Of a stretch of DNA of 64,000 nt, positions 24,655-58,642 are shown one piece after another. The notes beneath the pieces are model-generated. The model saw nothing but the letters and a program-made list of their open reading frames with translations, was not told where the DNA came from and did no database searches. Made by a program: the position numbers and the translations under genes. The first letter of the stretch is position 1; each line of letters starts with the position of its first letter. This DNA comes from an uncultured Actinomycetota bacterium (GTDB lineage Bacteria > Actinomycetota > Thermoleophilia > RBG-16-64-13), in contig CAWJKE010000010.1 of assembly GCA_963843455.1 (NCBI GenBank), positions 71,442-135,441 of the forward strand, given 5' to 3'.

Positions 24655-24875
24655 GTTTTGGACCGCCTTTCGGTATTCACCTCGCGAAAGCGAGCGGCAT
24701 ACTGTCATCCCTGGAAGGATCAAGGGTAATGCCACTATAGCCTTAGAGGATGGCAAAGTCGCCGCTCTCCGAGCACTTTGCATCAGGCGAAGATGCTATT
24801 ACGCCCACGCATGAATCCGACAAGCCCGGGCGCGGCGCCCAGAGGATCGGAAGACGGCGCGGGACCGGGACTAGG

Positions 24876-42331: not shown

Positions 42332-42450
42332 GAAGCACCCCTTCCACGCCGACAATGGGCTCCGCTGGAGCAACCACACTAGAAAGAACGCCGACGCTTG
42401 TCAACGGCGAGGGGCTTTTCGCCTGTCGATGTACTTGAAAGATGACTAAC

Positions 42451-42475
42451 ATGCTTATATCATTAATCTTGCAAA
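42451..42475. promoter_or_regulatory. Conserved upstream box of ArsR gene 1
   Basis: ATGCTTATATCATTAATCTTGCAAA, 21/25 identical to 45831-45855. Confidence 0.6.
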
Positions 42476-42528
42476 CTTCTTACGCCGATTGCTCGGCTGC
42501 GGGCCGGGAACTAGAGGAGACATCCGGG

Positions 42529-42918
42529 ATGGATATGCGCCCCCTATTCAAGATGCACGCAAATGTGTGCCAGGCACTTGCCAGCGAGCACCGGCTTGCC
42601 ATCATGTACAGCCTCAAGGAAGGCGAGCGACGGGTGACCGACATCGCCGAGGAGGTCGGCCTCTCCGTCCACAATGTGTCGCAGCACCTGCGCGTCCTCA
42701 GGCAGGCCTTGCTCGTGCGCCCGCGCAAGGAGGGGCAGACGGTCTACTACTCCATCGCCAATCCCAAGTTCATGGACGCCTGCGGGCTTATGCGGCAGGG
42801 CCTTATCGAGGAGCACCAGTCCGAGGGTCAATCGCTTCAGTGGGCCGCGGGCTACCTCGACGCGCTCGAGGCTTCGTCGCTGGAAGCATCGTTGCCGGGT
42901 AGTTCGCCGGACAAGTAA
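42529..42918 (+). CDS. ArsR/SmtB regulator (two-Cys, BigR/SqrR-like candidate)
   Basis: VCQALASEHRL, NVSQHLRVLR, RKEGQTVYYSI, DACGL. Confidence 0.88.
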   Translation: MDMRPLFKMHANVCQALASEHRLAIMYSLKEGERRVTDIAEEVGLSVHNVSQHLRVLRQALLVRPRKEGQTVYYSIANPKFMDACGLMRQGLIEEHQSEGQSLQWAAGYLDALEASSLEASLPGSSPDK

Positions 42919-42943
42919 CCCGAGACGTGAGGGGGCGCGATAG

Positions 42944-44176
42944 ATGAAGCGATTACTGGTGATCGGGGCCGGGACCGCCGGCACTATGGTGGTCAATCGG
43001 CTCAGACCGATACTCGATAGCGACGAGTGGAAGATCACCATCGTGGACCCGATGGAGACCCACTACTACCAGCCTGGGTTCCTATTCATACCCTTCGGCA
43101 TGTACAGCAGGAGCGACGTGATCAAGCCCAAGCGGGACTTCATCCCGGCCGGCGTGGAGATGATCAAAGCGGCAGCCGACGTCATCGAGGCCGATCAGAA
43201 CCGGGTGAAACTGGCCGACGGTAAGATCCTCAATTACGACGTGCTGGTAGTGGCCACGGGTACTGCCACCCACCCCGAAGAGACGGCCGGCCTCGAAGGT
43301 CCCGAATGGCATAGGTCCATCTTCGACTTCTACACGATCGAGGGCGCGCTGGCCCTGGCCAAGCATCTGCGCACCTGGCGCGGGGGACGGCTGGTACTCA
43401 ACGTCGTGGAGAACCCCATCAAGTGTCCGGTCGCACCCCTGGAATTCATCATGTTGGCCGACTGGTTCTTCCACGAGCAGGGCGTCAGGGACCGGGTGGA
43501 GCTCATCTACGCCACCCCGCTGCCCGGCGCCTTCACCAAGCCTATCGCCTCCAAGCATCTGGGTGACATCCTGGAGGGCAAGGGGATCAAGGTGGTACCG
43601 GAGTTCCTGGTGGAGCACGTGGATCCCGACGCCAAGAAGTTGGTGCATTACGACGAGACCGAGCTGGAGTACGACCTGCTGGTGACCGTGCCCCTCAACA
43701 AGGGGGACGAACTGCTGGCGCGTTCCGGCCTGGGCGACGAGTTGAACTACGTGTCGGTTGACAAGCACAGCTTCCTGTCCAACAAGCACCCCAATGTGTT
43801 CGCGCTGGGCGATGCGGCTTCGCTCCCCACCTCAAAGAGCGGCTCGGGCGCGCACTTCGCCGTTGATTGCTTTGCGCAGAACTTCCTGCGCTACCTGGAC
43901 GGTCTCGACACTCAGCCCCAATACGATGGCCATACCAACTGCTTCATCGAGTCCGGCTTCGGCAAGGGCCTGCTTATCGACTTCAACTACGACGTGGAGC
44001 CCCTGCCCGGCCGCTACCCGCTGCCCGGCATCGGTCCCTTCGCTCTTCTTCAAGAGTCGGAGATGAACCACTGGGGCAAGATGATGTTCCGCTGGATGTA
44101 TTGGAACATCCTGCTCAAGGGCGCCGAGTTGCCGCTGCCCGCGCGCATGAGCATGTCGGGCAAATGGCACAGCTGA
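42944..44176 (+). CDS. sqr: Sulfide:quinone oxidoreductase / FccB-like flavoprotein
   Basis: GAGTAG, HYYQPG, VVATG, KCPVAPLE, VFALGDA, YDGHTNCF. Confidence 0.82.
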   Translation: MKRLLVIGAGTAGTMVVNRLRPILDSDEWKITIVDPMETHYYQPGFLFIPFGMYSRSDVIKPKRDFIPAGVEMIKAAADVIEADQNRVKLADGKILNYDVLVVATGTATHPEETAGLEGPEWHRSIFDFYTIEGALALAKHLRTWRGGRLVLNVVENPIKCPVAPLEFIMLADWFFHEQGVRDRVELIYATPLPGAFTKPIASKHLGDILEGKGIKVVPEFLVEHVDPDAKKLVHYDETELEYDLLVTVPLNKGDELLARSGLGDELNYVSVDKHSFLSNKHPNVFALGDAASLPTSKSGSGAHFAVDCFAQNFLRYLDGLDTQPQYDGHTNCFIESGFGKGLLIDFNYDVEPLPGRYPLPGIGPFALLQESEMNHWGKMMFRWMYWNILLKGAELPLPARMSMSGKWHS

Positions 44177-44183
44177 CGGTGAC

Positions 44184-44822
44184 GTGATGGAACAGGCGAT
44201 TGCAGTCTCCGATCTGGCCGCACTCAACGCCAAACTCGACGACCTGTCCGTCCAGGTCGCGTTCCTTGCCCAGCAGGCGCGCGAAACAGCTCGCAGGCAG
44301 CAGGAACGGTCCGAACTGATGCACGACCTTCTGCCCATCGCGAACGACGCGGTCGGGCTGGTCACGGAACAACTCGAGGAGATCCAGGGGTACGTGGACC
44401 TCTCCGATCTGCTGCGGCTGCTCAAGCGGCTCCTTCGCAACGGCCGCAACCTCGACCGGATGCTCGATCAGCTCGAGAGCCTCATGGATCTGGCCCAGAC
44501 CGTCGGCCCCCTGAGCGACAGCATCTTCGAGAAGGCGACCGACGTGTTCCAAGTGGCGGAACACAGGGGATATTTCGCGCTGGCCGGAAGTGCGGCCCAC
44601 GCTGTCGACAAAGTGGCCACCTCGGTGGCGCCTGAAGACCTCGACCGCTTAGCCGACAACCTAGTGGTGGTCCTCGCGGCATTCAAGGAACTGGACCAGC
44701 CCACGGACGTGGGCTTCCGCTCGCTGCTCAAGCAGATGCGGGATCCCGAGGTGCAGCGCGGCCTCGCGGCTGTGTTGCGCGTTATGCGGGCCATAGGGGT
44801 AAATACGGCCAAGAGCCGCTGA
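44184..44822 (+). CDS. DUF1641-domain protein (SQR partner)
   Basis: Coiled coil; C-terminal VGFRSLLKQMRDPEVQRGL. Confidence 0.8.
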   Translation: MMEQAIAVSDLAALNAKLDDLSVQVAFLAQQARETARRQQERSELMHDLLPIANDAVGLVTEQLEEIQGYVDLSDLLRLLKRLLRNGRNLDRMLDQLESLMDLAQTVGPLSDSIFEKATDVFQVAEHRGYFALAGSAAHAVDKVATSVAPEDLDRLADNLVVVLAAFKELDQPTDVGFRSLLKQMRDPEVQRGLAAVLRVMRAIGVNTAKSR

Positions 44823-44852
44823 CACGAAGTCCACCAAAGGGAGGAGATACGC

Positions 44853-45167
44853 ATGGCTACCCGGATGATCGCCGGCAAAGAAGTCCAGGTCAACGACGAG
44901 GGCTTCATGACCGATCCGAGCGAGTGGAACAAGGATATCGCGACGGCCATCGCCGCCGAAGAGGGCATCCCCGAGCTGACTGCCGACCACTGGAAGGTCA
45001 TCGACTGGTCGCGGCAGGTGGCTCAGAACGGCAAGTCCCCCACGCTCCGGCAGATAACCATGGGCACCGGGGTGAACACCAAGCAGATCTTTGCGCTGTT
45101 CCCCAAGGGTCCCGCGAAGAAAGCAGCGCGTATCGCCGGCCTGGGCAAACCTGAAGGCTGCGTCTGA
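44853..45167 (+). CDS. TusE/DsrC-family sulfur relay protein (single C-terminal Cys)
   Basis: DEGFM...W, LTADHWKVI, LFPKGP, AARIAGLGKPEGCV. Confidence 0.9.
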   Translation: MATRMIAGKEVQVNDEGFMTDPSEWNKDIATAIAAEEGIPELTADHWKVIDWSRQVAQNGKSPTLRQITMGTGVNTKQIFALFPKGPAKKAARIAGLGKPEGCV

Positions 45168-45216
45168 CCGAGCCTCGCCCAAACGGATCGAAACAAGCAC
45201 GAACTGGAGGCATGAC

Positions 45217-45729
45217 ATGGCCGACGAGATTCCCAACCGTCACATCGCGTTCATCTGCTCCAAGGGCGACCTGGACATGGCCTACCCCGCCCTGGTGATG
45301 GGCTGGTCGGCCCTTGGCAACGGCGTGGATGTAAGCATCTTCTTCACGTTTTGGGGCCTGGACATGGTCACCAAGAACCGCATCGACAAACTGCAGCTCG
45401 CTCCGGTGGCGAACACCAGCATGAAGATGACCATGATGGGCGTGCCCGTGCCCGCCAACTGGGGCATCCCGAACCTCATGGGCGTCCTCCCAGGCATGAC
45501 CCGCTTCGCCACGTGGCTCATGAGGAAGAAGATCAAGGGAGTTGGCGCGCCGCCGGTGCGCGAGTACATTGAGATGATGCAGGACGGAGGCGCCAAGCTC
45601 TTCGCCTGCAAGATGACCTGCGACATGATGGGCCTCGGCAAGAGCGACTTCATCGACGGCGTCATCGACGGCGTCACGGCCGCCGACTTCATCGATATGA
45701 CCGAGGGTGCGCAGATCATCTTCATCTAG
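45217..45729 (+). CDS. DsrE/DsrF-like (DsrE2/DrsE) sulfurtransferase
   Basis: SKGDLDMAYP, IFFTFWGL, FACKMTCDMMG, QIIFI. Confidence 0.88.
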   Translation: MADEIPNRHIAFICSKGDLDMAYPALVMGWSALGNGVDVSIFFTFWGLDMVTKNRIDKLQLAPVANTSMKMTMMGVPVPANWGIPNLMGVLPGMTRFATWLMRKKIKGVGAPPVREYIEMMQDGGAKLFACKMTCDMMGLGKSDFIDGVIDGVTAADFIDMTEGAQIIFI

Positions 45730-45770
45730 GAAGAGAAGCGGTGAGCGCGGCGATGCCCGCGCGACCTGCC

Positions 45771-45804
45771 GGGCCGGGGTGACTATCACCCCGGCCTTTT
45801 TTTG
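45771..45804 (+). terminator. Rho-independent terminator
   Basis: GGCCGGGGTGA-cta-TCACCCCGGCC followed by TTTTTTT. Confidence 0.9.
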
Positions 45805-45823
45805 TGCGCCCTCTTGCAATTGG

Positions 45824-45855
45824 TTGATGAATGCGTATATCATCAAACATGCAAA
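45824..45855. promoter_or_regulatory. Conserved upstream box / palindrome of ArsR gene 2
   Basis: TTGATGA-N9-TCATCAA inverted repeat overlapping ATGCGTATATCATCAAACATGCAAA (matches 42451-42475). Confidence 0.6.
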
Positions 45856-45914
45856 TACGCGATAAAGCAGACGCGATAGGAAATCCGGCGTCTGATCGGG
45901 TAGGAGTCGCCTCA

Positions 45915-46364
45915 GTGGACATGCGTCCCCTCTTCAAGATGCACGCCGATGTGTGCCAGGCTCTTTCGAGCGAGCACCGGCTCGCCATCATGTACGGCCT
46001 AAAGGAAGACGAGCGGCGGGTGAGCGATATCGCCGAGGATCTCGGCCTTCCCGTCCACAACGTGTCGCAGCACCTTCGCATCCTGCGGCAGGCGCTGCTG
46101 GTCCGGCCTCGCAAGGAAGGCCAGACCGTCTACTACTCCATCGCCAACCCCAAGTTCATGGAAGCCTGCGCTCTCATGCGCCAGGCCCTGCTCGAGGAGC
46201 ACCAGGCCGCAGGGACGGCCCTCCACGCCGCCGCCGGCGTCTTCGATCCGGTGGCCGCGACATACGGCCTTGGCGCCGACTCAGGCAGCGACTCGGCGGG
46301 CCCCGCCGGCGGTGCCGAACCGGCCCAAGACCCGGTGAACAGTCAGCTACTGGCAAACGCGTAA
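45915..46364 (+). CDS. ArsR/SmtB regulator, near-duplicate of 42529..42918
   Basis: DMRPLFKMHADVCQALSSEHRL...RPRKEGQTVYYSIANPKFMEACAL. Confidence 0.88.
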   Translation: MDMRPLFKMHADVCQALSSEHRLAIMYGLKEDERRVSDIAEDLGLPVHNVSQHLRILRQALLVRPRKEGQTVYYSIANPKFMEACALMRQALLEEHQAAGTALHAAAGVFDPVAATYGLGADSGSDSAGPAGGAEPAQDPVNSQLLANA

Positions 46365-46396
46365 CAGGCAACTACCCAAGAGAAAGGGAGACGATA

Positions 46397-46645
46397 ATGA
46401 CCGATCTTTCCACACTCAAAGGCGACAAAGTCGTCGACGCCCGCGGCACCTCCTGCCCCGGCCCGATCCTCGCTGCCAAGAAAGGCATGGCCGAAGTCAA
46501 GGTCGGCCAGATCATGGAAGTGCTCGCCACCGACTCCGGCACCCAGAAGGACCTTCCCGCCTGGTCCAAGAAGCTGGGCCATGAGTATCTCGGGTTCGTC
46601 GAAGAGCCCGGCTACATGAAGCTCTTCGTCAAGAAACTCAAGTAG
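46397..46645 (+). CDS. tusA: TusA/SirA-family sulfur carrier
   Basis: VDARGTSCPGP, GQIMEVLATDSG..DLPAW. Confidence 0.9.
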   Translation: MTDLSTLKGDKVVDARGTSCPGPILAAKKGMAEVKVGQIMEVLATDSGTQKDLPAWSKKLGHEYLGFVEEPGYMKLFVKKLK

Positions 46646-46661
46646 GCGCTGGGATCCTGCC

Positions 46662-47165
46662 GTGACTGCGACCGAGGACCCTGGGCCCATGACCGAGGGC
46701 TTCGCCCCCAAGATACTGGTCTTCTCGACCAACAATATCTCCGATCCAGGAATCGACCTGGCTGGTAGCTCGCATCTGCACTACTCGCCCACCGTCATGG
46801 TCATCAGCATGCCCTGTACAAGCGGCATCAGGCCGGATTGGATCCTCTACGCGGTGGAGCAGGGGTTCGACGGCGTGTTCATCGCGTCCGACGGAGAGGA
46901 ATGCGCCTTCCTGCCCGACTGCGCGGAGCGCAGCGCCAAGATCATGACCGACGCCCAGGCCCTACTGCAGGAGCGAGGCCACGCGCCCCAACGGGTGAAG
47001 ATGGCCGCGGTCTGCTCGGTGTGCGCGGATCCCTTCGTCAACTACATGGCCGAGTTCTCCAAGGCGCTGGTCGGGCTCGGACCGTCCAGCGCGGGGCCTG
47101 CGGGGACGGCGCCGACCGGCGCCAGCCCGGACGACCCAGGCGCTTCGGGGGAGCGTGCGGCATGA
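46662..47165 (+). CDS. MvhD/FlpD-like hydrogenase iron-sulfur subunit, atypical Cys pattern
   Basis: FAPKILVF, DLAG...Y, PCTSG, GFDGVFI, ECAF, extra CSVC. Confidence 0.78.
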   Translation: MTATEDPGPMTEGFAPKILVFSTNNISDPGIDLAGSSHLHYSPTVMVISMPCTSGIRPDWILYAVEQGFDGVFIASDGEECAFLPDCAERSAKIMTDAQALLQERGHAPQRVKMAAVCSVCADPFVNYMAEFSKALVGLGPSSAGPAGTAPTGASPDDPGASGERAA

Positions 47166-49943
47166 ACTACGACGCTTTGGTCATCGGCAGCGGCATCAGC
47201 GGCATGGAGTCGGCGCTCAAGCTGGGCGACATGGGCTACAAGGTCCTGGTGGTCGAGAAGGAAGGCAGCGTCGGCGGGAAGATGATCCTGCTGAGCAAGG
47301 TCTTTCCCACCCTCGACTGCGCGAGCTGCATCTCCACTCCCAAGATGGGAGCCACCATCCACCATCCCAACCTGACCGTGCTCACCTACGCCGAGGTGGA
47401 AAGCATCGAGAGCGAGAACGGTGGGTTTCGGGCCAAGATCAAGCAGAAGGCCCGCTTCGTAGATGAAGCCGCCTGCACCGGCTGCCGACAGTGCGAGATG
47501 GTCTGCAAGGTCGCGGTGCCCGACCAGTTCAATGCCGACCTGGTCTCACGCCGGGCCGCCTACATCGCCTTCCCGCAGGCAGTGCCCAAGAAAGCCGTCA
47601 TCGAGCGCCAGGGCACCTCGCCTTGCACCTACAACTGCCCGGCCGGGATCAGGGCCCACGGCTACATAGCCCTTATCCGCAGCGGCGAGTATGAAAAGGC
47701 GTTCCAACTGGTCGCCGACGCAACGCCTCTGGTCGGCAGCCTCGGCCGCGCCTGCTATGCGCCCTGCGAATCGGAATGCACGCGAGGAGAGCTCGAAGGG
47801 CCGCTCGACATCCGGCGGCTCAAGCGCTTCGTGGCCGACCGGCATTACGCACAGCCCCGGGTCGCCCCGGAGATCGCCCCGCCCAACGGCGGGAAGGTGG
47901 CCATCATCGGCTCCGGCCCCGCCGGCCTGACGGCGGCGTGGCACCTGGCCCGCAAGGGCTACGAGGTCAAGATCTTCGAGGCGGCCTCTCAGCCCGGCGG
48001 CATGCTGCGCCTGGCTCTGCCGCCCTACCGGCTCCCGAACGAGGTCGTCGATGAGGACGTGGCCAATGTCACCGACATCGGCGTGACCATCGCAGACCGA
48101 TACGCGGGTCGAGGATCTGGAAGCTCTCAAGAGCGAGGGCTACGACGCGATCCTGGTGGCTATCGGGACGCATCTGGGAACGAAGCTCCGCGTGCCCGGC
48201 GAGGATCTGCCGGGACGTCATGCGTTCTACCGACTTCCTGCGCGCCGCTAAGCTCGGTGAGCCGCTCGAGATCGAGGGCAAACGAGTGGTGGTGATCGGC
48301 GGCGGTAACGTCGCCATCGACGCGGCCCGTACGGCGGCGCGCCTCGGCGCCTGCCTCGGTCCAGGCCCTGAGCCTGGAGTCACTCCAGGAAATGCCGGCC
48401 CATCCCTCGGAGATCGCGTGAAGCCAAGTCCGAAGGGCGTCAGCTTCAGCCACTCCTGCGGGGTACGGGATTTCGCCGGCGACAGCGGGTGCAGAGCATC
48501 AACCTGCTGCACTGCGAGTCCGTGTTCGACGACCAGGGCAAGTTCAGCCCCAAGTACTTCGAACAAACGCCGCGGGCAGCTATCGAGTGCGACCTGGTCA
48601 TCGTCGCGGCCGGCATGAGGCCGGACTCGGGCGACTTCGGCCTGGAGATCAACCCGTCGGGCACCATCAAGGGTCGACAACGCGACTCTGCAGACCGCAA
48701 CGTTCCCTACGTCTTCGCCGCCGGCGACGTGGTCGCCGGGCCGTCAATGATCACGACTGCGGCAGGGCTTGGCAGCCGGGCAGCGTTCATGATGGACCGC
48801 TGGCTCCAGGGGCAAGATCTCAACCCGGCCGACTTCGACTCCCGGCTTCCGATGGTCGACAAAGTGGCCGTCCTCGGCCGGCAGAAGACCTACACGACCA
48901 TCCAGCCGGTGGTCGCGCGGCATGTGGAGACGCTCAAGCCGGGCGAGTTCTATCCGGACGAGCCGGAGGTCACCGAGGAGGAGGTGCTGGCGAGTGTGAA
49001 CCGCTGCCTTGACTGCGGCGTCTGTTCCGAATGCAACTCCTGCGTGGACATCTGCCCGGCCGATTGCATCGACCTGAACATGAGGGACCAGGACATCGAG
49101 GCCGAGGTGGGCGCCGTCGTTCTGGCCACCGGCTACACGCTCTTCCCTGCCGAACTCAAGCCGCAGTACGGCTTCGGCACGTACAAGAACGTGATCACCG
49201 GCATGCAGATGGACCGGCTTCTCGCTCCCACCCGTCCGTACAACGGGGTCGTCCGCCCGGGCGACGGCAAGGTCCCCGACAACATCGCCTTCATCCTCTG
49301 CACCGGATCCCGCGACGAGACGCTCGGTAACCCAATGTGCTCGCGGATCTGCTGCATGTACTCGGTCAAGCACAACCAGCTCGTCATGGGCGCGCTGCCG
49401 CTGGCCGACGTGACCGTCTACTACATGGACATCCGCACCCCCAGCAAGGGCTACAACGAGTTCTACGAGCAGGCCAAGGGCATGGGCGCCAACTTTGTGA
49501 AGGGCCGCGTGGCCAGCATCGCCGAGAAGGACGATGGCAACCTCGTCCTCAAGTACGAGGATATCGAGACCGGCACCCTGACCGAGATGGAGCACGACAT
49601 GGTGGTCCTTGCGGTAGGGGTGCAGCCCAACGACGAAGCCGCCCATCTGTTCGCCGACGGCATGCTGGCTCTGGACGATTTCGGCTGGGTGGGTGAAACG
49701 GACGAAGACGTGAATCCCGGCGCCACCAACCTCCCCGGCGTGTTCGTCGCCGGTGCGGCGTCCGGAGTCAAGGACATCCCCGATTCGATACTGCACGCCG
49801 GGGGAGCGGCGGCGCAGGTAGCCGCGCACCTCGAGAAGAAGGCCCGTCAGGCGCCGGCTGCGGACGCGGCGCGGGACGCCACCCCCGCCGAGACCGCCAT
49901 GCCAGGCGTCACAGCCGGCCGGGTCGCGGAGGTGGCGAGATGA
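47162..49943 (+). CDS. HdrA-family flavoprotein with inserted GltD/NfnB-like NAD(P)H domain (HdrL-type); several frameshifts 48090-48700
   Basis: GSGISG, GGKM..LSKVFPTLDCASC, PQAVP; then PCTYNCPAG, GRACYAPCE, IIGSGPAGL, VIGGGNVAIDAAR, RCLDCG; then back to HdrA VVLATG, CTGSRD, CSRICCMYS, GVFVAG...KDIPDS. Confidence 0.85.
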
Positions 49944-51739
49944 GTCGGCGTCGCATCGGCGTCTACGTCTGCCACTGCGGCGGCAACATCTCCGACTACG
50001 TCGAGGTCGACAAGGTGGTGGCGGAACTGCAGACCGACCCGGAGGTGATCGTGGCCAGGACCGCCATGTTCACCTGCTCCGATGCCACGCAGCAGGAGAT
50101 CATCGAAGACATCAAAGAGCAGCACCTCGACGGCATCGTGGTAGCTTCCTGCTCTCCGAAGCTGCATACCTTCACTTTCAGGGAAGTGGCGAAGCGAGCG
50201 GGCCTCAGCGCCTACCAGTACACCCAGGTGAACGTCAGAGAGCAGTGCTCCTGGACGCACACCGACGACTTTGCGGGTGCCACTGCCAAGGCGACCCGAC
50301 TGGTCAAAGCGGGCGTCGGCCGGACCCGGCTGACGGTGCCTCTGGAGCCCATCGTGGTCGAGACCGTACCCAAGGCAGTCGTCATCGGCGGGGGTATCGC
50401 CGGTCTGCGCGCGGCGCTCGGGTTGGCCGAGATCGGCATCACGGCGTTCCTGGTGGAGAAGGAGGCGGAGCTTGGCGGCTGGGCGGCCGGTTTCGGTGAC
50501 ATGTATCCCTACGGCAGGAACGGCCGCGAGTTGGTGGCCGGGCTTATCGAAAAGGTCCGCCGTCACCCCGACATCACCGTGTTCACCGGCGCCGAAGTCG
50601 TCCGAAAGTCCGGCAGCTTTGGCAACTACCAGGTGGAGATCAGGGTGGGCCTCGACGGCCGCGCTGGGGCCGAATCCGGCGACGACGGCGGGCAGACCAT
50701 CACGGTGGACGCCGGCTCGATCATCGTCGCGACCGGGTTCGACGCGTATCCGGTCGCGGAGAACGAACTCGGCTACGGACTCGACGGCGTGATCACCCTG
50801 CCGGACTTAAAACAGCTCGTCGAGTCGAGCAACGGCTCGCTCGAGTATCAGGGCAAGCCGGTCAAGAACATCGTCTACATTTACTGCGTCGGCAGCCGGC
50901 AGGACCGCGACGTGGTCGACGGCGCTCACGAGTACTGCTCCCGCTACTGCTGCAACGCGGCCGTCCACGCTTCGCTCCAGGTGGTGGCGAAGCCAGGGCG
51001 TGTGCACCAGTATCACCTGCACCGCGACATCCGCACGTACGGCAAGTACGAGAAGCTGTACGACGAGTCGCTCAACAAGGGCTCGGTGTATCTCAAGGTC
51101 CCCGATGACGAGCCGCCCACAGTAGCGAGGGATCCGGAGACCGGCCGACTGCTTGTCACCACGCGCGACCTTCTGTCCGAGGGCGAGGAGATCGAGATCC
51201 TCGCCGACCTGGTAGTGCTGGTCACCGGAATGGTTCCGCGCGAGAACGAGGACCTGACCAAGACTCTCAAGCTGCCCATCGGGAAGAGCGGCTTCTTCAA
51301 CGAGATCCACCCGAAGCTCCGCCCGGTCGAGACGGTGGTCGACGGCGTCTATATCTGCGGCACCTGCCAGCAGCCGATGAACTCGGCGGAGGCGGTCGCC
51401 TCCGGCCTGGCCGCGGTAACGCAGAGCGCCTCCATCCTCAAGCGGGGCTTCGCGGAACTGGATCCGCTCGTCGCCATGGTGGACACCGACGCCTGCACCT
51501 GGTGCGGCGCGTGTCTGGAGGCCTGCCCGTATGGGGCGCCTCAGCAGGCCGAGGCGGACGGCAAGACGGTCGCCGTCATCGACAAGACCACCTGCAAGGG
51601 CTGCGGCGGCTGCATACCGGTCTGTCCGGTGAAGGCCATCGATCTGGAGGGCTACACCGACGCGCAGATCCGGGCCATGATCGACGGGATGCTTTCGGTC
51701 TCGTCGATGGCGCCTTTGACTGTGGAGGTGCCGGCATGA
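49940..51739 (+). CDS. HdrA/QmoB-like flavoprotein
   Basis: RIGVYVCHCGGNI, VVASCSP, VNVREQCSW, GGGIAG, CVGSR, YCSRYCC, HPKLRPVET, two terminal 4Fe-4S motifs. Confidence 0.92.
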   Translation: MSRRRIGVYVCHCGGNISDYVEVDKVVAELQTDPEVIVARTAMFTCSDATQQEIIEDIKEQHLDGIVVASCSPKLHTFTFREVAKRAGLSAYQYTQVNVREQCSWTHTDDFAGATAKATRLVKAGVGRTRLTVPLEPIVVETVPKAVVIGGGIAGLRAALGLAEIGITAFLVEKEAELGGWAAGFGDMYPYGRNGRELVAGLIEKVRRHPDITVFTGAEVVRKSGSFGNYQVEIRVGLDGRAGAESGDDGGQTITVDAGSIIVATGFDAYPVAENELGYGLDGVITLPDLKQLVESSNGSLEYQGKPVKNIVYIYCVGSRQDRDVVDGAHEYCSRYCCNAAVHASLQVVAKPGRVHQYHLHRDIRTYGKYEKLYDESLNKGSVYLKVPDDEPPTVARDPETGRLLVTTRDLLSEGEEIEILADLVVLVTGMVPRENEDLTKTLKLPIGKSGFFNEIHPKLRPVETVVDGVYICGTCQQPMNSAEAVASGLAAVTQSASILKRGFAELDPLVAMVDTDACTWCGACLEACPYGAPQQAEADGKTVAVIDKTTCKGCGGCIPVCPVKAIDLEGYTDAQIRAMIDGMLSVSSMAPLTVEVPA

Positions 51740-52014
51740 GCACCACTGAGCCGGGCGCCGCCGGAACGAGCGCGCCCATCCGCGAGGTACGCGAGATCGT
51801 CCGCGAGGAGCACCTCATGCGAGGCCGCATCCAGAAGCTCCTCGAAGACGGCGCCCTGACCATCCCCGAGATCGCCGAGGGCCTCGGCTCTCCGACGTCT
51901 GAGGTGACCTACTGGGTCATGGGCATGCGCAAGTACGGATACGTGCGAGAGGAAAAAGAGGCCACGGACGAGGGCTACTTCCGTTATCAGGCGATCGAGA
52001 GAGAGATCGGATGA
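51736..52014 (+). CDS. Small winged-helix protein within the hdr operon
   Basis: LEDGALTIPEIAEGLG...V.YWVMGMRKYG; ATGA overlaps on both sides. Confidence 0.7.
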   Translation: MSTTEPGAAGTSAPIREVREIVREEHLMRGRIQKLLEDGALTIPEIAEGLGSPTSEVTYWVMGMRKYGYVREEKEATDEGYFRYQAIEREIG

Positions 52015-53177
52015 GCACCAGAGTAAACCCAGAACTCGTCGACGAGCTTGCCGCCTATGGGGCCGAGGACGTGCAGAAGTGCTTCAACTGCGGCAACTGC
52101 ACCGCCACCTGCTCGCTCGCCGAAGAGCACGAGAACTTCCCCCGGCGCTCGATGCGCGCCCTCCAACTGGGCAGGGAAGACAAGCTGAAGGCCGGTCTAG
52201 AGCCTTGGCTCTGCTACTACTGCGGTGAATGCTCCACCATGTGCCCCCGCGGCGCCTCCCCGGGCGAGACCATGATGAGTCTTCGGCGCTGGTTGACCTC
52301 GCGCTACGACTTCACCGGCATCAGCCGGGTGTTCTACCGGCGTCCGCGGGTGGAAATGATATCGGTGATCGTCGTGGCACTACTGACCGCGATCGGGTTC
52401 ACGCTGTTCGGCCTCATGAACGGCGACATCCACCAGTACAACGGGCCTGATGCTTTCCTCCCGGCCTCCGTGATCCACATCTTCGACTGGGTGCTCGCGG
52501 GGATACTCCTGGCCTTCCTCATCCCCAACATGATCCGAATGTGGTGGTTCACGATCGGCCGGGAGACCACGGGGCGCTCCGGCACCATGCGCCTCTCAGC
52601 CGGCGCCTACCTCAGGTCCATCTATCAGTTCCCGCTGCACTTCATCACCCAGAAGCGCTACGGACAGTGCGAGCGCAAGCGGCCGTGGGTTGTTCACCTG
52701 GCCCTCATGCTGAGCTACGTGACCATGCTCGTGCTCATCATGTTCTTTCTCGAGTACATGTGGTCCGGGCCCGCGATCGATTGGCGCGTCCACGTGTTCG
52801 GCTATCTGGCCAGCGCCGGCCTGATCTTCGCCACCCTGTGGGCGATCGTGGGCCGGCTGAAGAAGATGGAGGCCCAGCACCAGCATTCGCACGAGAGCGA
52901 CTGGATCTTCCTGATCCTGCTGCTCGTGGTAGCGCTGACCGGAGTGCTGCAGCACGTGCTTCACAGGGCGGACGCCGACGTAGCGGCCAACGTGGTCTAC
53001 GTGGTGCACCTCATGGCAGTCGTGCCGATGCTGGGACTCGAGGTTCCCTTCAGTAAATGGTCGCACATGGCTTATCGCCCGCTGGCCATGTACTTCGCGA
53101 CCCTGCGCAAGCAGATGGTGCCGGCACCGGTGCCTGAGGAAGCCCCCGGCGACATGCAGACCGAGCCCGTCGCCTGA
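52011..53177 (+). CDS. QmoC-like protein (HdrC-type 2x[4Fe-4S] plus NarI/HdrE-like membrane domain)
   Basis: CFNCGNCTATC, WLCYYCGECSTMCPR, about 6 TM with His residues (VHL, VHV, VHL, PFSKWSH). Confidence 0.85.
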   Translation: MSTRVNPELVDELAAYGAEDVQKCFNCGNCTATCSLAEEHENFPRRSMRALQLGREDKLKAGLEPWLCYYCGECSTMCPRGASPGETMMSLRRWLTSRYDFTGISRVFYRRPRVEMISVIVVALLTAIGFTLFGLMNGDIHQYNGPDAFLPASVIHIFDWVLAGILLAFLIPNMIRMWWFTIGRETTGRSGTMRLSAGAYLRSIYQFPLHFITQKRYGQCERKRPWVVHLALMLSYVTMLVLIMFFLEYMWSGPAIDWRVHVFGYLASAGLIFATLWAIVGRLKKMEAQHQHSHESDWIFLILLLVVALTGVLQHVLHRADADVAANVVYVVHLMAVVPMLGLEVPFSKWSHMAYRPLAMYFATLRKQMVPAPVPEEAPGDMQTEPVA

Positions 53178-53214
53178 ACTAGCAGTACACCGCAAGATCG
53201 AGCAAGGAGATCCC

Positions 53215-53694
53215 ATGGCAGACACAACGAAAAAGACCATCATCCTTTTCAGCGGTGACTTCGACAAAGTCATGGCCGCCCTCATCATCGCGAACGGTGC
53301 CGCCGCCATGGGCGACGACGTCACCATCTTCTGCACGTTCTGGGGTCTGAACGCCCTCCGTAAGCCGGAGAAAGTCAAGACCGAGAAGAAGTTCCTGCAG
53401 GGCATGTTCGGCAAGATGATGCCCCGCGGTATCAACAAGCTGGGCATGTCGAAGATGAACTTCGCAGGCATGGGCGTGCCCATGATGAACAAAGTGATGA
53501 AAGCCGAGGGGGCCATGACGCTGCAGCAGCTACTGGACGCCGCGATAGAGCAGGGCGTCAAGCTGATCGCCTGCACCATGACCATGGATCTTCTGGGCTT
53601 CAAGAAGGAAGAGCTCCTGGACGGGGTCGAATACGCCGGCGTCGCTGCCTACCTGGCTGAGGCGGACGAGGCGAACGTCAATCTGTTTATCTAG
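53215..53694 (+). CDS. DsrE2/DrsE-like sulfurtransferase 2
   Basis: FSGDFDKVMAALIIANGA, FCTFWGL, IACTMTMDLLG, AGVAAYL, NLFI. Confidence 0.9.
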   Translation: MADTTKKTIILFSGDFDKVMAALIIANGAAAMGDDVTIFCTFWGLNALRKPEKVKTEKKFLQGMFGKMMPRGINKLGMSKMNFAGMGVPMMNKVMKAEGAMTLQQLLDAAIEQGVKLIACTMTMDLLGFKKEELLDGVEYAGVAAYLAEADEANVNLFI

Positions 53695-53703
53695 CAGCAG
53701 CAC

Positions 53704-54204
53704 TTGAGGCCGACCTGGGAGTATCGACGGCGTCACTATCATCGTCCTTCTGAGCTGCTGCATGATCTGCGCGCGCTTCGGCGTCAACGGTCCCGGATCA
53801 ACGGCATGGGGAGGGGCACGTTGATCGACCGAGCCTTCCAGGAGCGCCTGATGCTGACGGTGACCGAAGTGAATGGCTGCCGCTACTGCGAGTATGCGCA
53901 CGCCAGGATGGCGTTGGCCGCCGGTGTCACGCGCGCGGATGTAGAGGCACTGGGCGTAGGGCGGCTAGACGGATGTCCACCGGAAGAAATCCCCGCTTTG
54001 CTCTACGCTCAGCACTGGGCGGAGATGGGTGCCGAGCCCGAACCAGAAGCCCGTCAACGCGTTCTGGAGACCTACGGGCAGGCGAAGACCGAGGCCATAG
54101 AACTATCGATGCGCATGATCCGGGTGGGCAACCTCACCGGCAACACCTGGGACTACTTGATGTATCGCGCTTCTTTTGGCCGCTGGGGGAACACACAGCG
54201 TTGA
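53704..54204 (+). CDS. AhpD/carboxymuconolactone decarboxylase family protein
   Basis: ERLMLTVTEVNGCRYCEYAH. Confidence 0.82.
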   Translation: MRPTWEYRRRHYHRPSELLHDLRALRRQRSRINGMGRGTLIDRAFQERLMLTVTEVNGCRYCEYAHARMALAAGVTRADVEALGVGRLDGCPPEEIPALLYAQHWAEMGAEPEPEARQRVLETYGQAKTEAIELSMRMIRVGNLTGNTWDYLMYRASFGRWGNTQR

Positions 54205-54235
54205 TGCACCCCCCATCTCACGAAGTTGCGAACGG

Positions 54236-54739
54236 CTACCGTCTTCCCGCCAGTCGGACGGCCGCCCTCTTCTCGACGTCAAGGGTAAGCGTGTTCGGGT
54301 CTCCGTAATGGAGTGCTTTGCTCGGGCAGACTCTGACGCAGGCCGGCTCGAGCCCCGCTTCAAGGCGGGCACTGCACAGGTCGCATTTCTGCATCGTGCC
54401 GTCCCCGCCGAAACGGGGTACCCCGAAAGGACAGGCTATCGAGCAGCTGTGACATCCGATACATAGCTGAGCGTCGATCCGCACAGCGCGGGTCGCAGCA
54501 TCCCGGGAGATGGCCCCGGTGGGGCAAGCAACACGACACGGGGCGTCCTCGCAGTGCATGCAGGCCATGGAAACGTAGCGAAGCCGGGCCTCTGGATAGG
54601 CGCCCGATTCTACGGTGAAGACTTGGCGCCAGGCGGTGGGCTCCCCACCTACCTCCAAATCGTTCTGATCCATACAGGCGACCGCACATGCCATGCAGCC
54701 GACGCAGCGGTCGAGGTCGAGGCGAAGGGCGTAGCTCAT
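54236..54739 (-). CDS. DmsB/NrfC-type 4Fe-4S subunit
   Basis: CVGCMACAVAC, CMHCEDAPC..CP, CIGCHSCSIACP, KCDLC..PACVRVCP. Confidence 0.92.
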   Translation of the reverse strand: MSYALRLDLDRCVGCMACAVACMDQNDLEVGGEPTAWRQVFTVESGAYPEARLRYVSMACMHCEDAPCRVACPTGAISRDAATRAVRIDAQLCIGCHSCSIACPFGVPRFGGDGTMQKCDLCSARLEAGLEPACVRVCPSKALHYGDPNTLTLDVEKRAAVRLAGRR

Positions 54740-56964: not shown

Positions 56965-57064
56965 GCGCCCTCCGGCATCCCGTTGCGCCTGTGCTAGATC
57001 ATGGCCTCGACCCCGGGTCGGGGCTGTCCCTGCATTGTAGGGGATTGACGCGGGGGCGCTAAGA

Positions 57065-57085: not shown

Positions 57086-57211
57086 CTTCATCTAACCCCC
57101 GATTCTTACACTCCTAACATACCCTGCGAGGTATCGACCGTGGGACCCGGCACTTATCTGGGGACCCGCACCGCGGGGCGCAGTGTGACCTCGACATTAT
57201 GGGAGAAACCG

Positions 57212-57847
57212 ATGAGAGAAGTTCTGGTCGAAAGACGTGGGCCGCCGAGCCGGCGGACCGTCGTGCATTGGGTGACCGTGCTCTTGCTGAGCGTTTCCGG
57301 CCTGCTCACCACCCTTACCGGCATCTATTTCCTGTTCTTGCCGTCAGGCGGGTACCAGGGAGGAAGAAATCCTCACTACGGGCAGACCTTCCTCTTTGAC
57401 CGCAGCATTTGGAGCGACATCCACACCTGGGCGGGGATCGTCATGATCGCCGTGTCGCTGTTCCACGTGATCCTCCACTGGCAGTGGGTGGCCGAGATGG
57501 GAAGGCGCTCCCTTGCTGTGGCGCGAGGCCGGCGGAAGCCGTTCAACCGCAAGATCTGGGCTCGGGTAGGCGTTGTGACCGCGATAGGGATCGTATTCCT
57601 CGGCGTGGCCGCCTCCGGGATCTACTTCTTCGTGCTGCCCGGCGGTCAAGGAAGTAACCGAGCGGTGCAGTTTCTGTTCAGCCGCAGTACCTGGGACCTC
57701 GTGCATACGTGGACGGGGGTCCTCATGATCATCGCCGCCGTGGTACATCTGACGATGCGCTGGAAGTGGGTTGCTCGAGTGACACCGAGCGCGACCCGAG
57801 CGTTGGTGACACGCCGTGACCGCCGACCCGAACGGAGCTACGTATGA
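57212..57847 (+). CDS. DUF4405-like cytochrome-b-type membrane protein (duplicated domain)
   Basis: WSDIHTWAG...FHVILHWQW and WDLVHTWTG...VHLTMRWKW repeats. Confidence 0.72.
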   Translation: MREVLVERRGPPSRRTVVHWVTVLLLSVSGLLTTLTGIYFLFLPSGGYQGGRNPHYGQTFLFDRSIWSDIHTWAGIVMIAVSLFHVILHWQWVAEMGRRSLAVARGRRKPFNRKIWARVGVVTAIGIVFLGVAASGIYFFVLPGGQGSNRAVQFLFSRSTWDLVHTWTGVLMIIAAVVHLTMRWKWVARVTPSATRALVTRRDRRPERSYV

Positions 57848-58638: not shown

Positions 58639-58642
58639 GGAG

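What the first reader, a model, noticed from the sequence alone, without database searches (positions are those of the whole stretch)
42451..54204. HdrB-less, Apr-less Hdr/Qmo-like complex embedded in a persulfide relay (SQR, TusE, TusA, two DsrE2)
Seen: two transcription units. Unit 1 is arsR-sqr-DUF1641-tusE/dsrC-dsrE2 plus terminator. Unit 2 is arsR-tusA-mvhD*-hdrA(GltD)-hdrA-wHTH-qmoC-dsrE2-ahpD, with ATGA couplings in the hdr core. The window has no hdrB, aprAB, dsrAB or lipoate-binding protein, so this matches neither QmoABC-Apr nor the sHdr-LbpA sulfur-oxidation system. Inference: a poorly characterised system coupling NAD(P)H, ferredoxin and menaquinone (possibly by flavin bifurcation) to reduction or oxidation of protein-bound sulfane sulfur on TusA/DsrE/TusE.
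Basis: partly seen in the sequence, partly recalled or inferred. Interest (0 to 1): 0.82.

Follow-up and report, generated by a model that had tools for sequence, protein, structure and literature searches.

The report
TusA-linked Qmo-like membrane redox complex
A soil actinobacterium encodes a conserved but unstudied membrane electron-transfer complex, related to the Qmo complex of sulfate reducers, beside sulfur-carrier proteins and a sulfide oxidase, which suggests an uncharacterised way of moving electrons to or from protein-bound sulfur.

Summary
The gene content is real. Two ArsR-led units share a 25-nt promoter box: arsR-sqr(type III)-DUF1641-tusE-dsrE2, then arsR-tusA-mvhD*-hdrL-hdrA-wHTH-qmoC-dsrE2(-ahpD). 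Four ATGA overlaps and a terminator between the units are present.

Corrections:
- hdrL (HdrA+GltD) is not an open frame here. It has seven insertion events and one deletion within 490 bp, most likely an assembly fault, because a co-binned allelic contig and three orthologs are intact.
- ahpD is accessory.
- The window holds an unrelated CCG gene 20 kb away.

The genome (95% complete) has no aprA or dsrA.

Among 80 loci found with QmoC, 25 carry the wHTH gene. TusA lies just upstream of mvhD* in 21 of the 21 that reach that far, and a DsrE-type gene flanks 23 of 25. None of the other 55 has either; 43 of those carry a [NiFe] hydrogenase instead.

The TusA-linked HdrA forms one clade across four phyla. 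QmoC is an exchangeable module. MvhD* has lost the canonical cluster cysteines and gained an invariant C(S/T)VC motif (22 of 22).

I read this as a Qmo-like complex dedicated to TusA/DsrE-bound sulfur. Direction and chemistry are unproven. It is a new variant of a known kind.

The parts
42451..42475 (+). 25-nt box 1 (ATGCKTATATCATYAAWCWTGCAAA) overlapping a -10-like TATCAT; candidate ArsR operator/promoter of unit 1
   Evidence: only two copies in the whole assembly
42529..42918 (+). ArsR-family regulator 1, with a conserved Cys pair
   Evidence: HTH_5 7.7e-13; PDB Rv0081, SqrR, BigR
42944..44176 (+). type III sulfide:quinone reductase
   Evidence: NF049943 610.5 bits, cut-off 525; uninterrupted 410-aa ORF
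44184..44822 (+). DUF1641 protein
   Evidence: PF07849 4.1e-10
44853..45167 (+). TusE/DsrC-family protein, with only the penultimate C-terminal Cys
   Evidence: PF04358 1.3e-31; TIGR03342 83 bits; sequence
45217..45729 (+). soluble DsrE2-like sulfur carrier (a)
   Evidence: PF13686 9.4e-34; NF047629 113.7 bits, below cut-off 210; no hydrophobic segment
45771..45797 (+). intrinsic-terminator-like hairpin (12 pairs, 9 GC) with a T-run, ending unit 1
45831..45855 (+). 25-nt box 2, same motif as box 1, overlapping a -10-like TATCAT of unit 2
45921..46364 (+). ArsR-family regulator 2 (78% identical to regulator 1)
46397..46645 (+). TusA sulfur carrier, with invariant Cys in DARGxxCPGP
   Evidence: PF01206 6e-22; Cys20 invariant in 20 of 20
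46662..47165 (+). MvhD-fold protein lacking the canonical N-terminal CxxC and carrying an invariant C(S/T)VC (C118, C121)
47162..49943 (+). HdrL-type gene: QmoA/HdrA-like flavoprotein with a GltD/NfnB-like insert (Fer4_20, FAD and NAD(P)H folds). It is broken in this assembly by seven insertion events and one deletion between 48093 and 48581
49940..51739 (+). HdrA/QmoB-like flavoprotein: N-terminal 4-Cys domain, FAD fold, C-terminal 2x[4Fe-4S] domain; no MvhD domain
51736..52014 (+). 92-aa winged-helix protein without Cys, always found between hdrA and qmoC
52011..53177 (+). QmoC-like subunit: HdrC-like 2x[4Fe-4S] domain plus six hydrophobic segments with conserved His
53215..53694 (+). soluble DsrE2B-like sulfur carrier (b)
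   Evidence: PF13686 5.7e-65; PDB 3pnx 7.2e-38, 2qs7 2.9e-18
53704..54204 (+). CMD/AhpD-like CxxC protein; accessory, not conserved with the system
   Evidence: PF02627 3.8e-08

Best explanation
Unit 2 encodes a membrane-anchored complex built on the Qmo plan.
- QmoC-like subunit: HdrC-type Fe-S domain plus a cytochrome b-type membrane domain, which contacts the menaquinone pool.
- Two HdrA-family flavoproteins. One (HdrL) carries a GltD-type NAD(P)H module in this lineage.
- A degenerate MvhD-fold subunit.
- A small winged-helix protein.

The redox partner is not APS reductase and not a hydrogenase. It is sulfur carried on TusA and a soluble DsrE2-type protein. I put about 0.65 on this general statement.

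I propose that the invariant C(S/T)VC pair of the MvhD-fold subunit is the dithiol/disulfide site that exchanges sulfur with TusA. Electrons would then pass through the HdrA Fe-S/FAD chain.

I favour the oxidative direction. Sulfide (or a thiol plus sulfide) is oxidised to a TusA/DsrE2-bound persulfide. Electrons go to menaquinone, and in this lineage also to NAD(P)+. The complex would work in parallel with the co-regulated type III SQR of unit 1. I put about 0.35-0.4 on the statement including direction.

Both units are probably switched by paralogous ArsR repressors that bind the shared 25-nt box.

Shown: gene content, synteny, conserved residues, the phylogenetic split.
Inferred: complex formation, the role of the CxxC, the direction, the signal sensed by ArsR.
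For: Architecture.
- HdrA/GltD/MvhD/QmoC domains.
- QmoC N-terminus resembles solved HdrC.
- QmoC has eight invariant Cys in two cluster motifs, conserved His and six hydrophobic segments.
- Four ATGA overlaps.

Link to sulfur carriers.
- Among the 80 best of 580 QmoC-related loci, 25 carry the wHTH gene.
- TusA lies upstream of mvhD* in 21 of the 21 whose DNA reaches that far. The gap is 0-202 nt in 20 of them.
- A DsrE-type gene flanks 23 of 25.
- None of the other 55 loci has TusA, DsrE2 or wHTH.
- One Anaerolineales locus adds a second TusA and a YeeE/YedE sulfur transporter.

Type-specific HdrA.
- The 18 TusA-linked rows, from Actinomycetota, Acidobacteriota, Chloroflexota and Verrucomicrobiota, sit on one side of a branch (97), apart from 41 other rows, mostly hydrogenase-linked.

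MvhD*.
- C(S/T)VC in 22 of 22, and no N-terminal CxxC in any.
- Two orthologs have only these two Cys.
- Solved MvhDs read ISASE at that spot.
- The fold matches MvhD 5odh_D (E 1.8e-10).

Not Apr or Dsr.

Co-regulation with SQR.
- Same box upstream of both units.
- SQR lies 8-9 kb upstream in 5 of 5 same-genus genomes.

Direction.
- In the sister architecture an electron donor (hydrogenase) occupies the place taken here by TusA/MvhD*.
- With menaquinone at about -75 mV (passage in PMC3333476) and textbook values recalled for S0/HS- (about -270 mV) and NAD(P) (-320 mV), coupled flow from sulfide to MQ plus NAD(P)+ is downhill and the reverse is not.
Against: - No experiment, expression data or predicted interface supports complex formation or any contact with TusA.
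- No subunit has a known catalytic site for sulfur chemistry: no CCG/HdrB, no siroheme, no Moco.
- A CxxC just before a helix can equally be a metal or cluster ligand.
- In this window hdrL is out of frame, so this copy may be inactive.
- The GltD module is absent from 10 of 21 assessable TusA-linked loci, so NAD(P)(H) is not part of the conserved core.
- The ArsR Cys pair is not at the positions of the SqrR cysteines, so persulfide sensing is only an analogy.
- SQR is adjacent in just 1 of 25 loci outside the window.
- The wHTH protein may simply be a transcription factor (its fold matches ArsR/MarR repressors).
- The redox potentials used for direction are recalled standard values, not values for protein persulfides.
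Confidence: 0.4

Rival explanations
1. Same complex, opposite direction. It is a persulfide (sulfane-sulfur) reductase that uses NAD(P)H (through HdrL) and/or menaquinol to reduce TusA/DsrE2 persulfides to H2S. It would serve as a reactive-sulfur detoxification or sulfur-respiration module under a sulfane-sensing ArsR.
For: - Same synteny and CxxC evidence as the main reading.
- The GltD-type NAD(P)H module is in this lineage.
- NADH-dependent persulfide reductases under persulfide-sensing repressors are known in other bacteria (recalled, not checked in a call).
- OsmC-like and AhpD-like thiol proteins are sometimes adjacent.
Against: - Co-induction with SQR would create a futile sulfide/sulfane cycle.
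- Menaquinol is too weak a reductant for sulfane sulfur by recalled standard potentials, so the conserved QmoC module would have no role unless a low-potential co-donor exists.
- GltD is missing in 10 of 21 loci.
Confidence: 0.25
2. The complex is a sulfur-independent NAD(P)H (or ferredoxin):menaquinone oxidoreductase, possibly bifurcating like FixABCX. TusA and DsrE2 are only accessory, for example for cofactor sulfur supply or regulation.
For: - All electron-transfer modules needed are present.
- The sister architecture is a plain hydrogenase-to-quinone arrangement.
- There is no recognisable sulfur-catalytic subunit.
Against: - TusA (21 of 21) and DsrE-type genes (23 of 25) are strictly conserved, while GltD is present in only 11 of 21.
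- Without GltD the conserved core has no evident cytoplasmic substrate other than the carriers.
- MvhD* lost its cluster ligands and gained a dithiol.
Confidence: 0.12
3. In this particular genome the operon is decaying. hdrL is a true pseudogene and the system is non-functional here, whatever it does elsewhere.
For: - Seven insertion events and one deletion in hdrL.
- Another broken gene lies elsewhere in the window.
Against: - All lesions sit in one 490-bp patch, while the remaining 11 kb is clean and each piece still reads as conserved protein.
- The patch starts 175 bp after the point where a collinear co-binned variant contig begins. That contig's copy is open for 647 codons.
- Relatives' contigs lack the extra bases.
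- The closest relative locus and two same-genus genomes show the same kind of scattered frame breaks, typical of uncorrected long-read consensus.
Confidence: 0.15
4. It is an ordinary QmoABC that serves APS reductase encoded elsewhere.
For: Overall Qmo-like subunit set.
Against: - Best aprA match in the genome is 48 bits against a cut-off of 641.75.
- No dsrA.
- QmoC is below the NCBIfam equivalog cut-off.
- The MvhD domain is not fused to QmoB.
Confidence: 0.01

Closest known systems
QmoABC of sulfate reducers and green sulfur bacteria
   Same: Two HdrA-like flavoproteins plus a QmoC that fuses an HdrC-like Fe-S domain to a cytochrome b membrane domain. It is thought to shuttle electrons between menaquinone and a cytoplasmic sulfur redox step (passages of PMC3333476).
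   Different: - No aprBA in the genome.
- QmoC is below the equivalog cut-off.
- MvhD is a separate, degenerate protein with a new CxxC.
- There is an extra wHTH gene, a GltD insert in the QmoA-like subunit, and the partner genes are tusA/dsrE2.
- Neukirchen et al. 2023 (PMC10504309, passages) mention 'type II' Qmo proteins in organisms without Dsr/Apr, of unknown role. I could not see their supplementary figures, so I cannot say whether this group is among them.
Hydrogenase-linked Qmo-like loci (qmoA-qmoC-qmoB-mvhD-[NiFe] hydrogenase) found here in Thermoleophilia, Acidobacteriota and others
   Same: QmoC 57-65% identical. Thermoleophilia QmoC of both kinds intermingle in the tree.
   Different: - A hydrogenase is present in 43 of 55 such loci and in none of the TusA-linked ones.
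- MvhD is canonical.
- HdrA forms a separate clade.
- There is no TusA, DsrE2 or wHTH.
MvhADG-HdrABC of methanogens (PDB 5odc and relatives)
   Same: The HdrA and MvhD folds.
   Different: - No HdrB, so no CCG catalytic site.
- No hydrogenase.
- The complex is membrane-bound through QmoC.
- The MvhD cluster ligands are lost.
sHdr-LbpA sulfur-oxidising system
   Same: An HdrA-family protein genetically linked to TusA and DsrE-type sulfur transferases, often with ArsR-type regulators (passages of PMC11094781).
   Different: - No sHdrB/C subunits and no lipoate-binding protein in the cluster.
- A quinone-binding QmoC is present instead.
HdrL of Desulfobacterium autotrophicum and other sulfate reducers
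   Same: An HdrA fused with a second NAD(P)H/FAD module, next to an mvhD gene (passage of PMC12142623; PMC2702500 seen in the search listing only).
   Different: Here it is part of a QmoC-anchored, TusA-linked operon. The GltD module is inserted within the HdrA fold.
SqrR/BigR/CstR-type persulfide-responsive repressors with SQR regulons
   Same: An ArsR fold, two conserved cysteines, and control of an sqr-containing operon.
   Different: The cysteines are at other positions than in SqrR. Sensing has not been tested.

Membership tests
QmoABC (Apr-linked) | QmoC is an HdrC-like 2x[4Fe-4S] domain fused to a multi-span cytochrome b domain | tested here: met
QmoABC (Apr-linked) | Score at or above the NCBIfam qmoC equivalog cut-off (NF038018, 300 bits) | tested here: not met
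   191.7 bits
QmoABC (Apr-linked) | Two HdrA-like flavoprotein subunits | tested here: met
QmoABC (Apr-linked) | MvhD-like domain fused to the C-terminus of QmoB | tested here: not met
   separate gene upstream; HdrA ends with the ferredoxin domain
QmoABC (Apr-linked) | aprBA present, usually adjacent | tested here: not met
   best 48 bits against cut-off 641.75; genome 95.11% complete
sHdr-LbpA | HdrB-type CCG-domain subunits in the cluster | tested here: not met
   none between 42451 and 54204; CCG genes lie elsewhere
sHdr-LbpA | Lipoate-binding LbpA (GCV_H fold) in or near the cluster | tested here: not met
   two GCV_H hits on contigs C7 and C2; the C2 one lies beside DGC-domain and ArsR genes
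sHdr-LbpA | Adjacent TusA and DsrE-type sulfur transferases | tested here: met
MvhADG-HdrABC | [NiFe] hydrogenase subunits adjacent | tested here: not met
   0 of 25 wHTH-bearing loci; none in the window
MvhD (canonical [2Fe-2S] subunit) | Cys pattern of solved MvhDs (CCNWC, PC/MC, GC..GDC). Assigning these as the cluster ligands is recalled, not tested | tested here: not met
   the N-terminal CxxC is absent in 22 of 22; two orthologs keep only the new C(S/T)VC
MvhD (fold) | FlpD/MvhD fold | tested here: met
   PF02662 1.1e-26; 5odh_D E 1.8e-10
HdrL | HdrA fold and GltD/NfnB-type NAD(P)H-FAD module in one polypeptide | tested here: met
   in the window the frame is broken, while orthologs of 894-909 aa are intact
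Type III SQR | NCBIfam NF049943 at or above the cut-off | tested here: met
   610.5 against 525; no in-frame stop, so it is not the Sec form
DsrE2 (NCBIfam equivalog) | NF047629 at or above 210 bits | tested here: not met
   113.7 and 98.3 bits; Pfam DrsE_2 is met; closest solved structures are 3pnx and 2qs7
TusA | Pfam TusA and a conserved Cys in the CPxP motif | tested here: met
DsrC proper | Two conserved C-terminal cysteines (definition recalled) | tested here: not met
   the protein ends ...GKPEGCV with no second Cys in the last 15 residues; the TusE/DsrC family model is met
SqrR/BigR persulfide sensors | Cys pair at the positions of the SqrR sensing cysteines | tested here: inconclusive
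   a Cys pair is conserved in 13 of 14 related ArsRs, but the first Cys aligns 13 residues before the SqrR Cys

The most novel reading that the evidence does not exclude
The TusA-linked complex is a flavin-based bifurcating sulfide dehydrogenase. Sulfide is oxidised at the MvhD* dithiol and the sulfane product is loaded on TusA/DsrE2. The downhill electron goes to menaquinone through QmoC and drives the uphill reduction of NAD(P)+ (GltD-bearing forms) or ferredoxin (GltD-less forms). This would give bacteria low-potential reducing power from sulfide without reverse electron transport. The hydrogenase-linked sister loci would be the H2-driven counterpart.
Probability: 0.2. Interest if true: 0.9.

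Novelty: new variant of a known kind. Interest (0 to 1): 0.62.

Why it matters
Qmo and Hdr modules are central to anaerobic energy conservation, yet the partner and mechanism of Qmo remain debated. Neukirchen et al. 2023 flagged Qmo-like proteins in organisms without Apr or Dsr as being of unknown role.

This locus defines a coherent, cross-phylum subgroup whose fixed genetic partners are sulfur carriers. That gives a concrete hypothesis and a concrete residue pair to test.

If the complex links protein persulfides to the quinone pool, it adds a cytoplasmic route of sulfide or sulfane-sulfur turnover to common soil lineages (Thermoleophilia, Acidobacteriota, Chloroflexota) that are not counted as sulfur cyclers.

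The comparison with the hydrogenase-linked form also shows that QmoC is a portable quinone adaptor used with different input modules.

Tried and rejected
- **Complex prediction.** HdrA + QmoC(1-110) + wHTH as partner gave no verdict (score 0.20, mark 0.32). It says nothing either way.
- **RNA evidence.** No RNA holder was listed. The four runs laid were DNA contigs of relatives with small shares.
- **Anchoring on wHTH.** The search for related loci with the wHTH alignment failed for lack of a conserved stretch. I used the genome search and the search of protein representatives instead.
- **Canonical Qmo-Apr and sHdr-LbpA.** Both rejected by the membership tests.
- **The GCV_H-like gene on contig C2 as an LbpA of a hidden sHdr cluster.** Rejected: its neighbours are DGC-domain and ArsR genes.
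- **The CCG gene in the window as a missing HdrB.** Rejected: it sits between two FAD_binding_4 genes 20 kb away.
- **wHTH as a DsrD-like activator.** No DsrD family hit at E <= 0.01 and no DsrD among the listed fold matches, so it stays an idea only. No fusion of wHTH to a large protein appears among the best 150 representatives, except one 1053-aa repeat protein.
- **ahpD and the Mo-oxidoreductase as parts of the system.** Rejected.
- **Sulfite-oxidase-family and SoxB searches of the genome**. They gave four generic Oxidored_molyb hits and no SoxB over cut-off, which did not settle the fate of the sulfur.
- **Literature.** Searches found no paper describing a tusA-mvhD-hdrA-wHTH-qmoC cluster.
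- **QmoC tree.** The careful search did not finish in time, so one search is the quick tree.

Full report
**What is there.**
The window (64% G+C) lies on contig C10 of a 3.08-Mb, 16-contig genome that is 95.11% complete. Related loci carry titles naming Thermoleophilia, Gaiellales or Actinomycetota MAGs.

ORF listing and Pfam/NCBIfam scans confirm two co-directional units.
- Unit 1: ArsR, type III SQR (NF049943, 610.5 bits, cut-off 525), DUF1641, a TusE/DsrC-family protein that ends GCV with no second cysteine, and a soluble DrsE_2 protein. A strong hairpin with a T-run follows at 45771-45797.
- Unit 2: a second ArsR (78% identical to the first), TusA, an MvhD/FlpD-fold protein, a large HdrA with an inserted GltD-type module (HdrL type), a 599-aa HdrA, a 92-aa winged-helix protein, a QmoC-like protein, a second DrsE_2 protein and a CMD/AhpD-like protein.

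Four gene junctions in the core are ATGA overlaps. A 25-nt box (ATGCKTATATCATYAAWCWTGCAAA) overlaps a -10-like TATCAT in front of each arsR. It occurs nowhere else in the assembly, even with four substitutions allowed. This fits two operons under one kind of repressor.

Intact orthologs are 894-909 aa. In the window the reading frame changes repeatedly. A DNA alignment with three intact orthologs shows the following:
- single-base insertions near 48093, 48215, 48352, 48419 and 48433;
- a one-base deletion near 48482;
- two plus one extra bases near 48563-48581.

The rest of the 11.7-kb cluster is clean, and each out-of-frame piece still reads as conserved GltD sequence.

Contigs of relatives (88-95% alike) from public soil and sediment runs lack the extra base at several of these places:
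- at 48093 in three contigs;
- at 48215 in one of two X2 contigs, but not in the X1 contig;
- at 48419 and 48433 in the one X2 contig that covers them;
- at 48559, 48571 and 48581 in one X2 and one X4 contig.

The assembly also holds a 15.5-kb contig, C3, that is collinear with window 47918-66810 at 81-90% identity. It begins 175 bp before the first lesion, and its hdrL part is open for 647 codons. C3 is therefore an allelic variant that was binned together with the window's contig.

The closest relative locus (L019) and two same-genus genomes show similar scattered frame breaks. Another gene in the window is also broken. I judge an assembly or consensus fault the more likely cause (about 0.75-0.85), with a true pseudogene as the alternative.

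C3 also lacks window 53699-57048, which holds ahpD, the Fe-S protein and the Mo-oxidoreductase. ahpD has no counterpart in 25 related loci. It is accessory.

**The rest of the genome.**
- No aprA: best match 48 bits against a cut-off of 641.75.
- No dsrA.
- No SoxB over cut-off.
- CCG (HdrB/HdrD-type) domains give 18 matches.
  - One CCG gene lies in the window at 21842-23150(-), between two FAD_binding_4 genes. It looks like a glycolate/lactate-oxidase Fe-S subunit.
  - Two others lie beside further HdrA/MvhD genes, on C7 (about 222.9-229.0 kb) and C10 (about 29.4-33.6 kb).
- The two GCV_H hits are on other contigs. One is beside DGC-domain and ArsR genes.

So the cluster is neither QmoABC-Apr nor sHdr-LbpA. 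I cannot exclude that a CCG protein encoded elsewhere works with it.

**Comparative evidence.**
A scan with QmoC found 580 related stretches, of which the best 80 loci were kept. Mapping the window's proteins on them gave two main architectures.

*wHTH-bearing loci.* Twenty-five loci carry the small wHTH gene between hdrA and qmoC (23 by tblastn, 2 by ORF clustering).
- They come from Thermoleophilia and other Actinomycetota, Bryobacterales, Anaerolineales and Ardenticatenaceae, Phycisphaerae and Pirellulales, Verrucomicrobia and Bacteroidales.
- TusA lies upstream of the mvhD-like gene in 21. The other four loci start inside hdrL or hdrA, so they cannot be judged. The TusA-to-mvhD gap is 0-202 nt in 20 of the 21.
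- A DsrE-type gene flanks 23 of 25 (18 by tblastn, 5 by ORF cluster). The two without are short contigs.
- An ArsR gene is nearby in at least 14 (12 by tblastn, 2 by Pfam).
- One Anaerolineales locus also has a second TusA and a YeeE/YedE sulfur transporter.
- The GltD insert is present in 11 of 21 assessable loci (ten Actinomycetota, one Bryobacterales) and absent in 10.

*The other 55 loci.* None has a TusA, DsrE2, wHTH, ArsR or SQR match. Forty-three carry [NiFe]-hydrogenase small and large subunits after qmoB-mvhD (Pfam check).

*SQR.* It is next to the complex in only one locus of the 25. However, it lies 8-9 kb upstream on the same strand in 5 of 5 same-genus genomes that have the wHTH gene.

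*The wHTH family.*
- 314 clusters at 90% identity.
- 337 representatives at E <= 1e-10.
- In a sample of 301 genomes of the class it is found at E <= 1e-16 in 72, by my count of the rows. The tool's tally at E <= 0.001 is 125, but the weak hits cover only the HTH core.
- Sources name it only 'transcriptional regulator' or 'hypothetical'.

**Trees.**
- *HdrA, FastTree* (window plus 60 loci; 20 loci dropped). All 18 TusA-linked rows fall on one side of a branch (97) and all 41 rows of the other, mostly hydrogenase-linked, architecture on another (100).
- *QmoC, quick IQ-TREE* (window plus 75 loci). The Thermoleophilia TusA-linked QmoCs fall in two starred groups among hydrogenase-linked QmoCs of the same class. 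They are separated by a long, fully supported branch from the TusA-linked QmoCs of other phyla.

The cytoplasmic module therefore defines the system, and QmoC behaves as an exchangeable quinone adaptor.

**Residue-level observations.**
- TusA keeps the invariant Cys of DARGxxCPGP in 20 of 20.
- QmoC has eight invariant Cys in two cluster motifs, invariant or nearly invariant His in the membrane part and six hydrophobic segments. Its N-terminus matches solved HdrC.
- HdrA keeps four N-terminal Cys, the FAD glycine motif, a Cys cluster around 316-338 and a C-terminal two-cluster domain.
- DsrE2b matches the solved proteins 3pnx (7.2e-38) and 2qs7 (2.9e-18) and keeps the aligned active-site-position Cys. 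2qs7 is called a DsrE2B-type transferase in a passage of PMC11094781. Neither DsrE2 has a hydrophobic segment.
- The MvhD-like protein is the most telling.
  - Solved MvhDs and the hydrogenase-linked MvhD read CCNWC, MC and GC..GDC, and have ISASE near the C-terminus.
  - All 22 TusA-linked proteins lack the N-terminal CxxC and carry C(S/T)VC where the others have ISASE.
  - Two orthologs have no other cysteine.
  - C118, V120 and C121 are invariant in the 19-row alignment.
  - The AlphaFold model (pLDDT 79) matches MvhD chains (5odh_D, E 1.8e-10). It puts the CxxC in the loop just before the last helix.
- The ArsR proteins share a conserved Cys pair (13 of 14 related regulators). The pair is not at the positions of the SqrR cysteines.

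**How it most likely works.**

*Shown.* A Qmo-plan set of genes is translationally coupled and evolutionarily locked to TusA and a DsrE-type carrier, in a genome without Apr or Dsr.

*Inferred.*
- The proteins form one membrane complex.
- The MvhD* dithiol is the point where carrier-bound sulfur meets the electron chain.
- QmoC connects that chain to menaquinone.
- In this lineage HdrL adds NAD(P)(H).

*Direction.* I lean to the oxidative direction for three reasons.
- The complex is co-regulated with SQR.
- In the sister architecture the corresponding place is held by an electron donor, the hydrogenase.
- With menaquinone near -75 mV (PMC3333476 passage) and recalled textbook potentials for S0/HS- and NAD(P), coupled flow from sulfide to quinone plus NAD(P)+ is favourable, while the reverse is not.

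*The reductive reading.* A persulfide reductase remains a serious rival. If NAD(P)H is a free-standing donor, reduction of sulfane sulfur is also downhill.

*What is missing.* Nothing here shows ferredoxin involvement or bifurcation. No subunit offers known chemistry for oxidising sulfur beyond the sulfane level.

*The wHTH protein.* Its role is open. Its model is a generic winged helix closest to ArsR/SmtB and MarR repressors. The complex prediction gave no verdict.

**Comparison with the literature.**
- Ramos et al. 2012 (passages) proposed that Qmo needs a third partner such as a hydrogenase or an NADH-linked enzyme. The two architectures found here are genetic realisations of such partners.
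- Neukirchen et al. [quoted passage not shown] Their supplementary figures were not available to me.
- HdrL is described for Desulfobacterium autotrophicum (PMC2702500 in a search listing; a passage in PMC12142623).
- Six full-text searches found no description of the tusA-mvhD-hdrA-wHTH-qmoC arrangement.

**Verdict.**
- The system is a new variant of the Qmo/Hdr kind, with a testable active-site hypothesis.
- Interest is moderate to high (0.62). It is limited by the absence of any functional or expression evidence and by the flawed copy in this window.

Noticed in passing
L022-L081 (e.g. L094:8184-16291): A widespread sister architecture, qmoA-qmoC-qmoB-mvhD followed by [NiFe]-hydrogenase small and large subunits. 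It is present in 43 of the 55 non-TusA loci (Thermoleophilia, Acidobacteriota, Krumholzibacteriota, Bacteroidota and others) and suggests an H2:menaquinone (possibly bifurcating) Qmo-like complex.
   Followed up: partly
window 53699-57048: A 3.35-kb segment holding ahpD-like, a 4Fe-4S protein (54236-54790, -) and a 742-aa molybdopterin oxidoreductase (54736-56964, -; best partial matches FdhA/PhsA-like, all below cut-off). It is absent from the co-binned allelic contig C3, so it is an indel between close populations. A paralogous pair (71-72% identity) lies on contig C16.
   Followed up: partly
window 21842-23150 (-): An HdrD/GlcF-like Fe-S protein with two CCG domains, split by a frameshift after about residue 140. 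It is flanked by two FAD_binding_4 genes (20087-21829 and 23371-24783), a glycolate/D-lactate-oxidase-like set.
   Followed up: partly
genome contig C3 (15.5 kb) versus window 47918-66810: The assembly holds two collinear versions of this region at 81-90% identity, which is a strain or species variant binned together rather than a paralog. Copy-number and completeness figures for this MAG should be read with that in mind.
   Followed up: yes
genome C7:222954-228981 and C10:29465-33645 (outside the window): Two further Hdr-type clusters, each with a CCG-domain protein. The C7 cluster is CCG-HdrL-like-HdrA-MvhD. The C10 cluster is an HdrC-like stretch, a CCG protein, and HdrA-MvhD.
   Followed up: no
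genome C10:150896-151628 (-), about 15 kb beyond the window end: A second DsrE2-like (40% identical to DsrE2b) plus TusA-like (25%) gene pair.
   Followed up: no
window 57140-57847 (+) and 58328-60735 (+): A DUF4405/cytochrome b561-like membrane protein divergent from the Mo-oxidoreductase, followed by an OmpR-type response regulator and a HAMP histidine kinase.
   Followed up: no
window 39395-42379 (-): A 994-aa M6 (immune inhibitor A-like) metallopeptidase with MAM-like and DUF11 domains, directly upstream of unit 1 on the opposite strand.
   Followed up: no
L051, L067: Two Myxococcota loci have the canonical order qmoA-qmoB(+MvhD)-qmoC, without a hydrogenase or TusA. Their HdrA forms a separate long branch. 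Whether apr is nearby was not checked.
   Followed up: no
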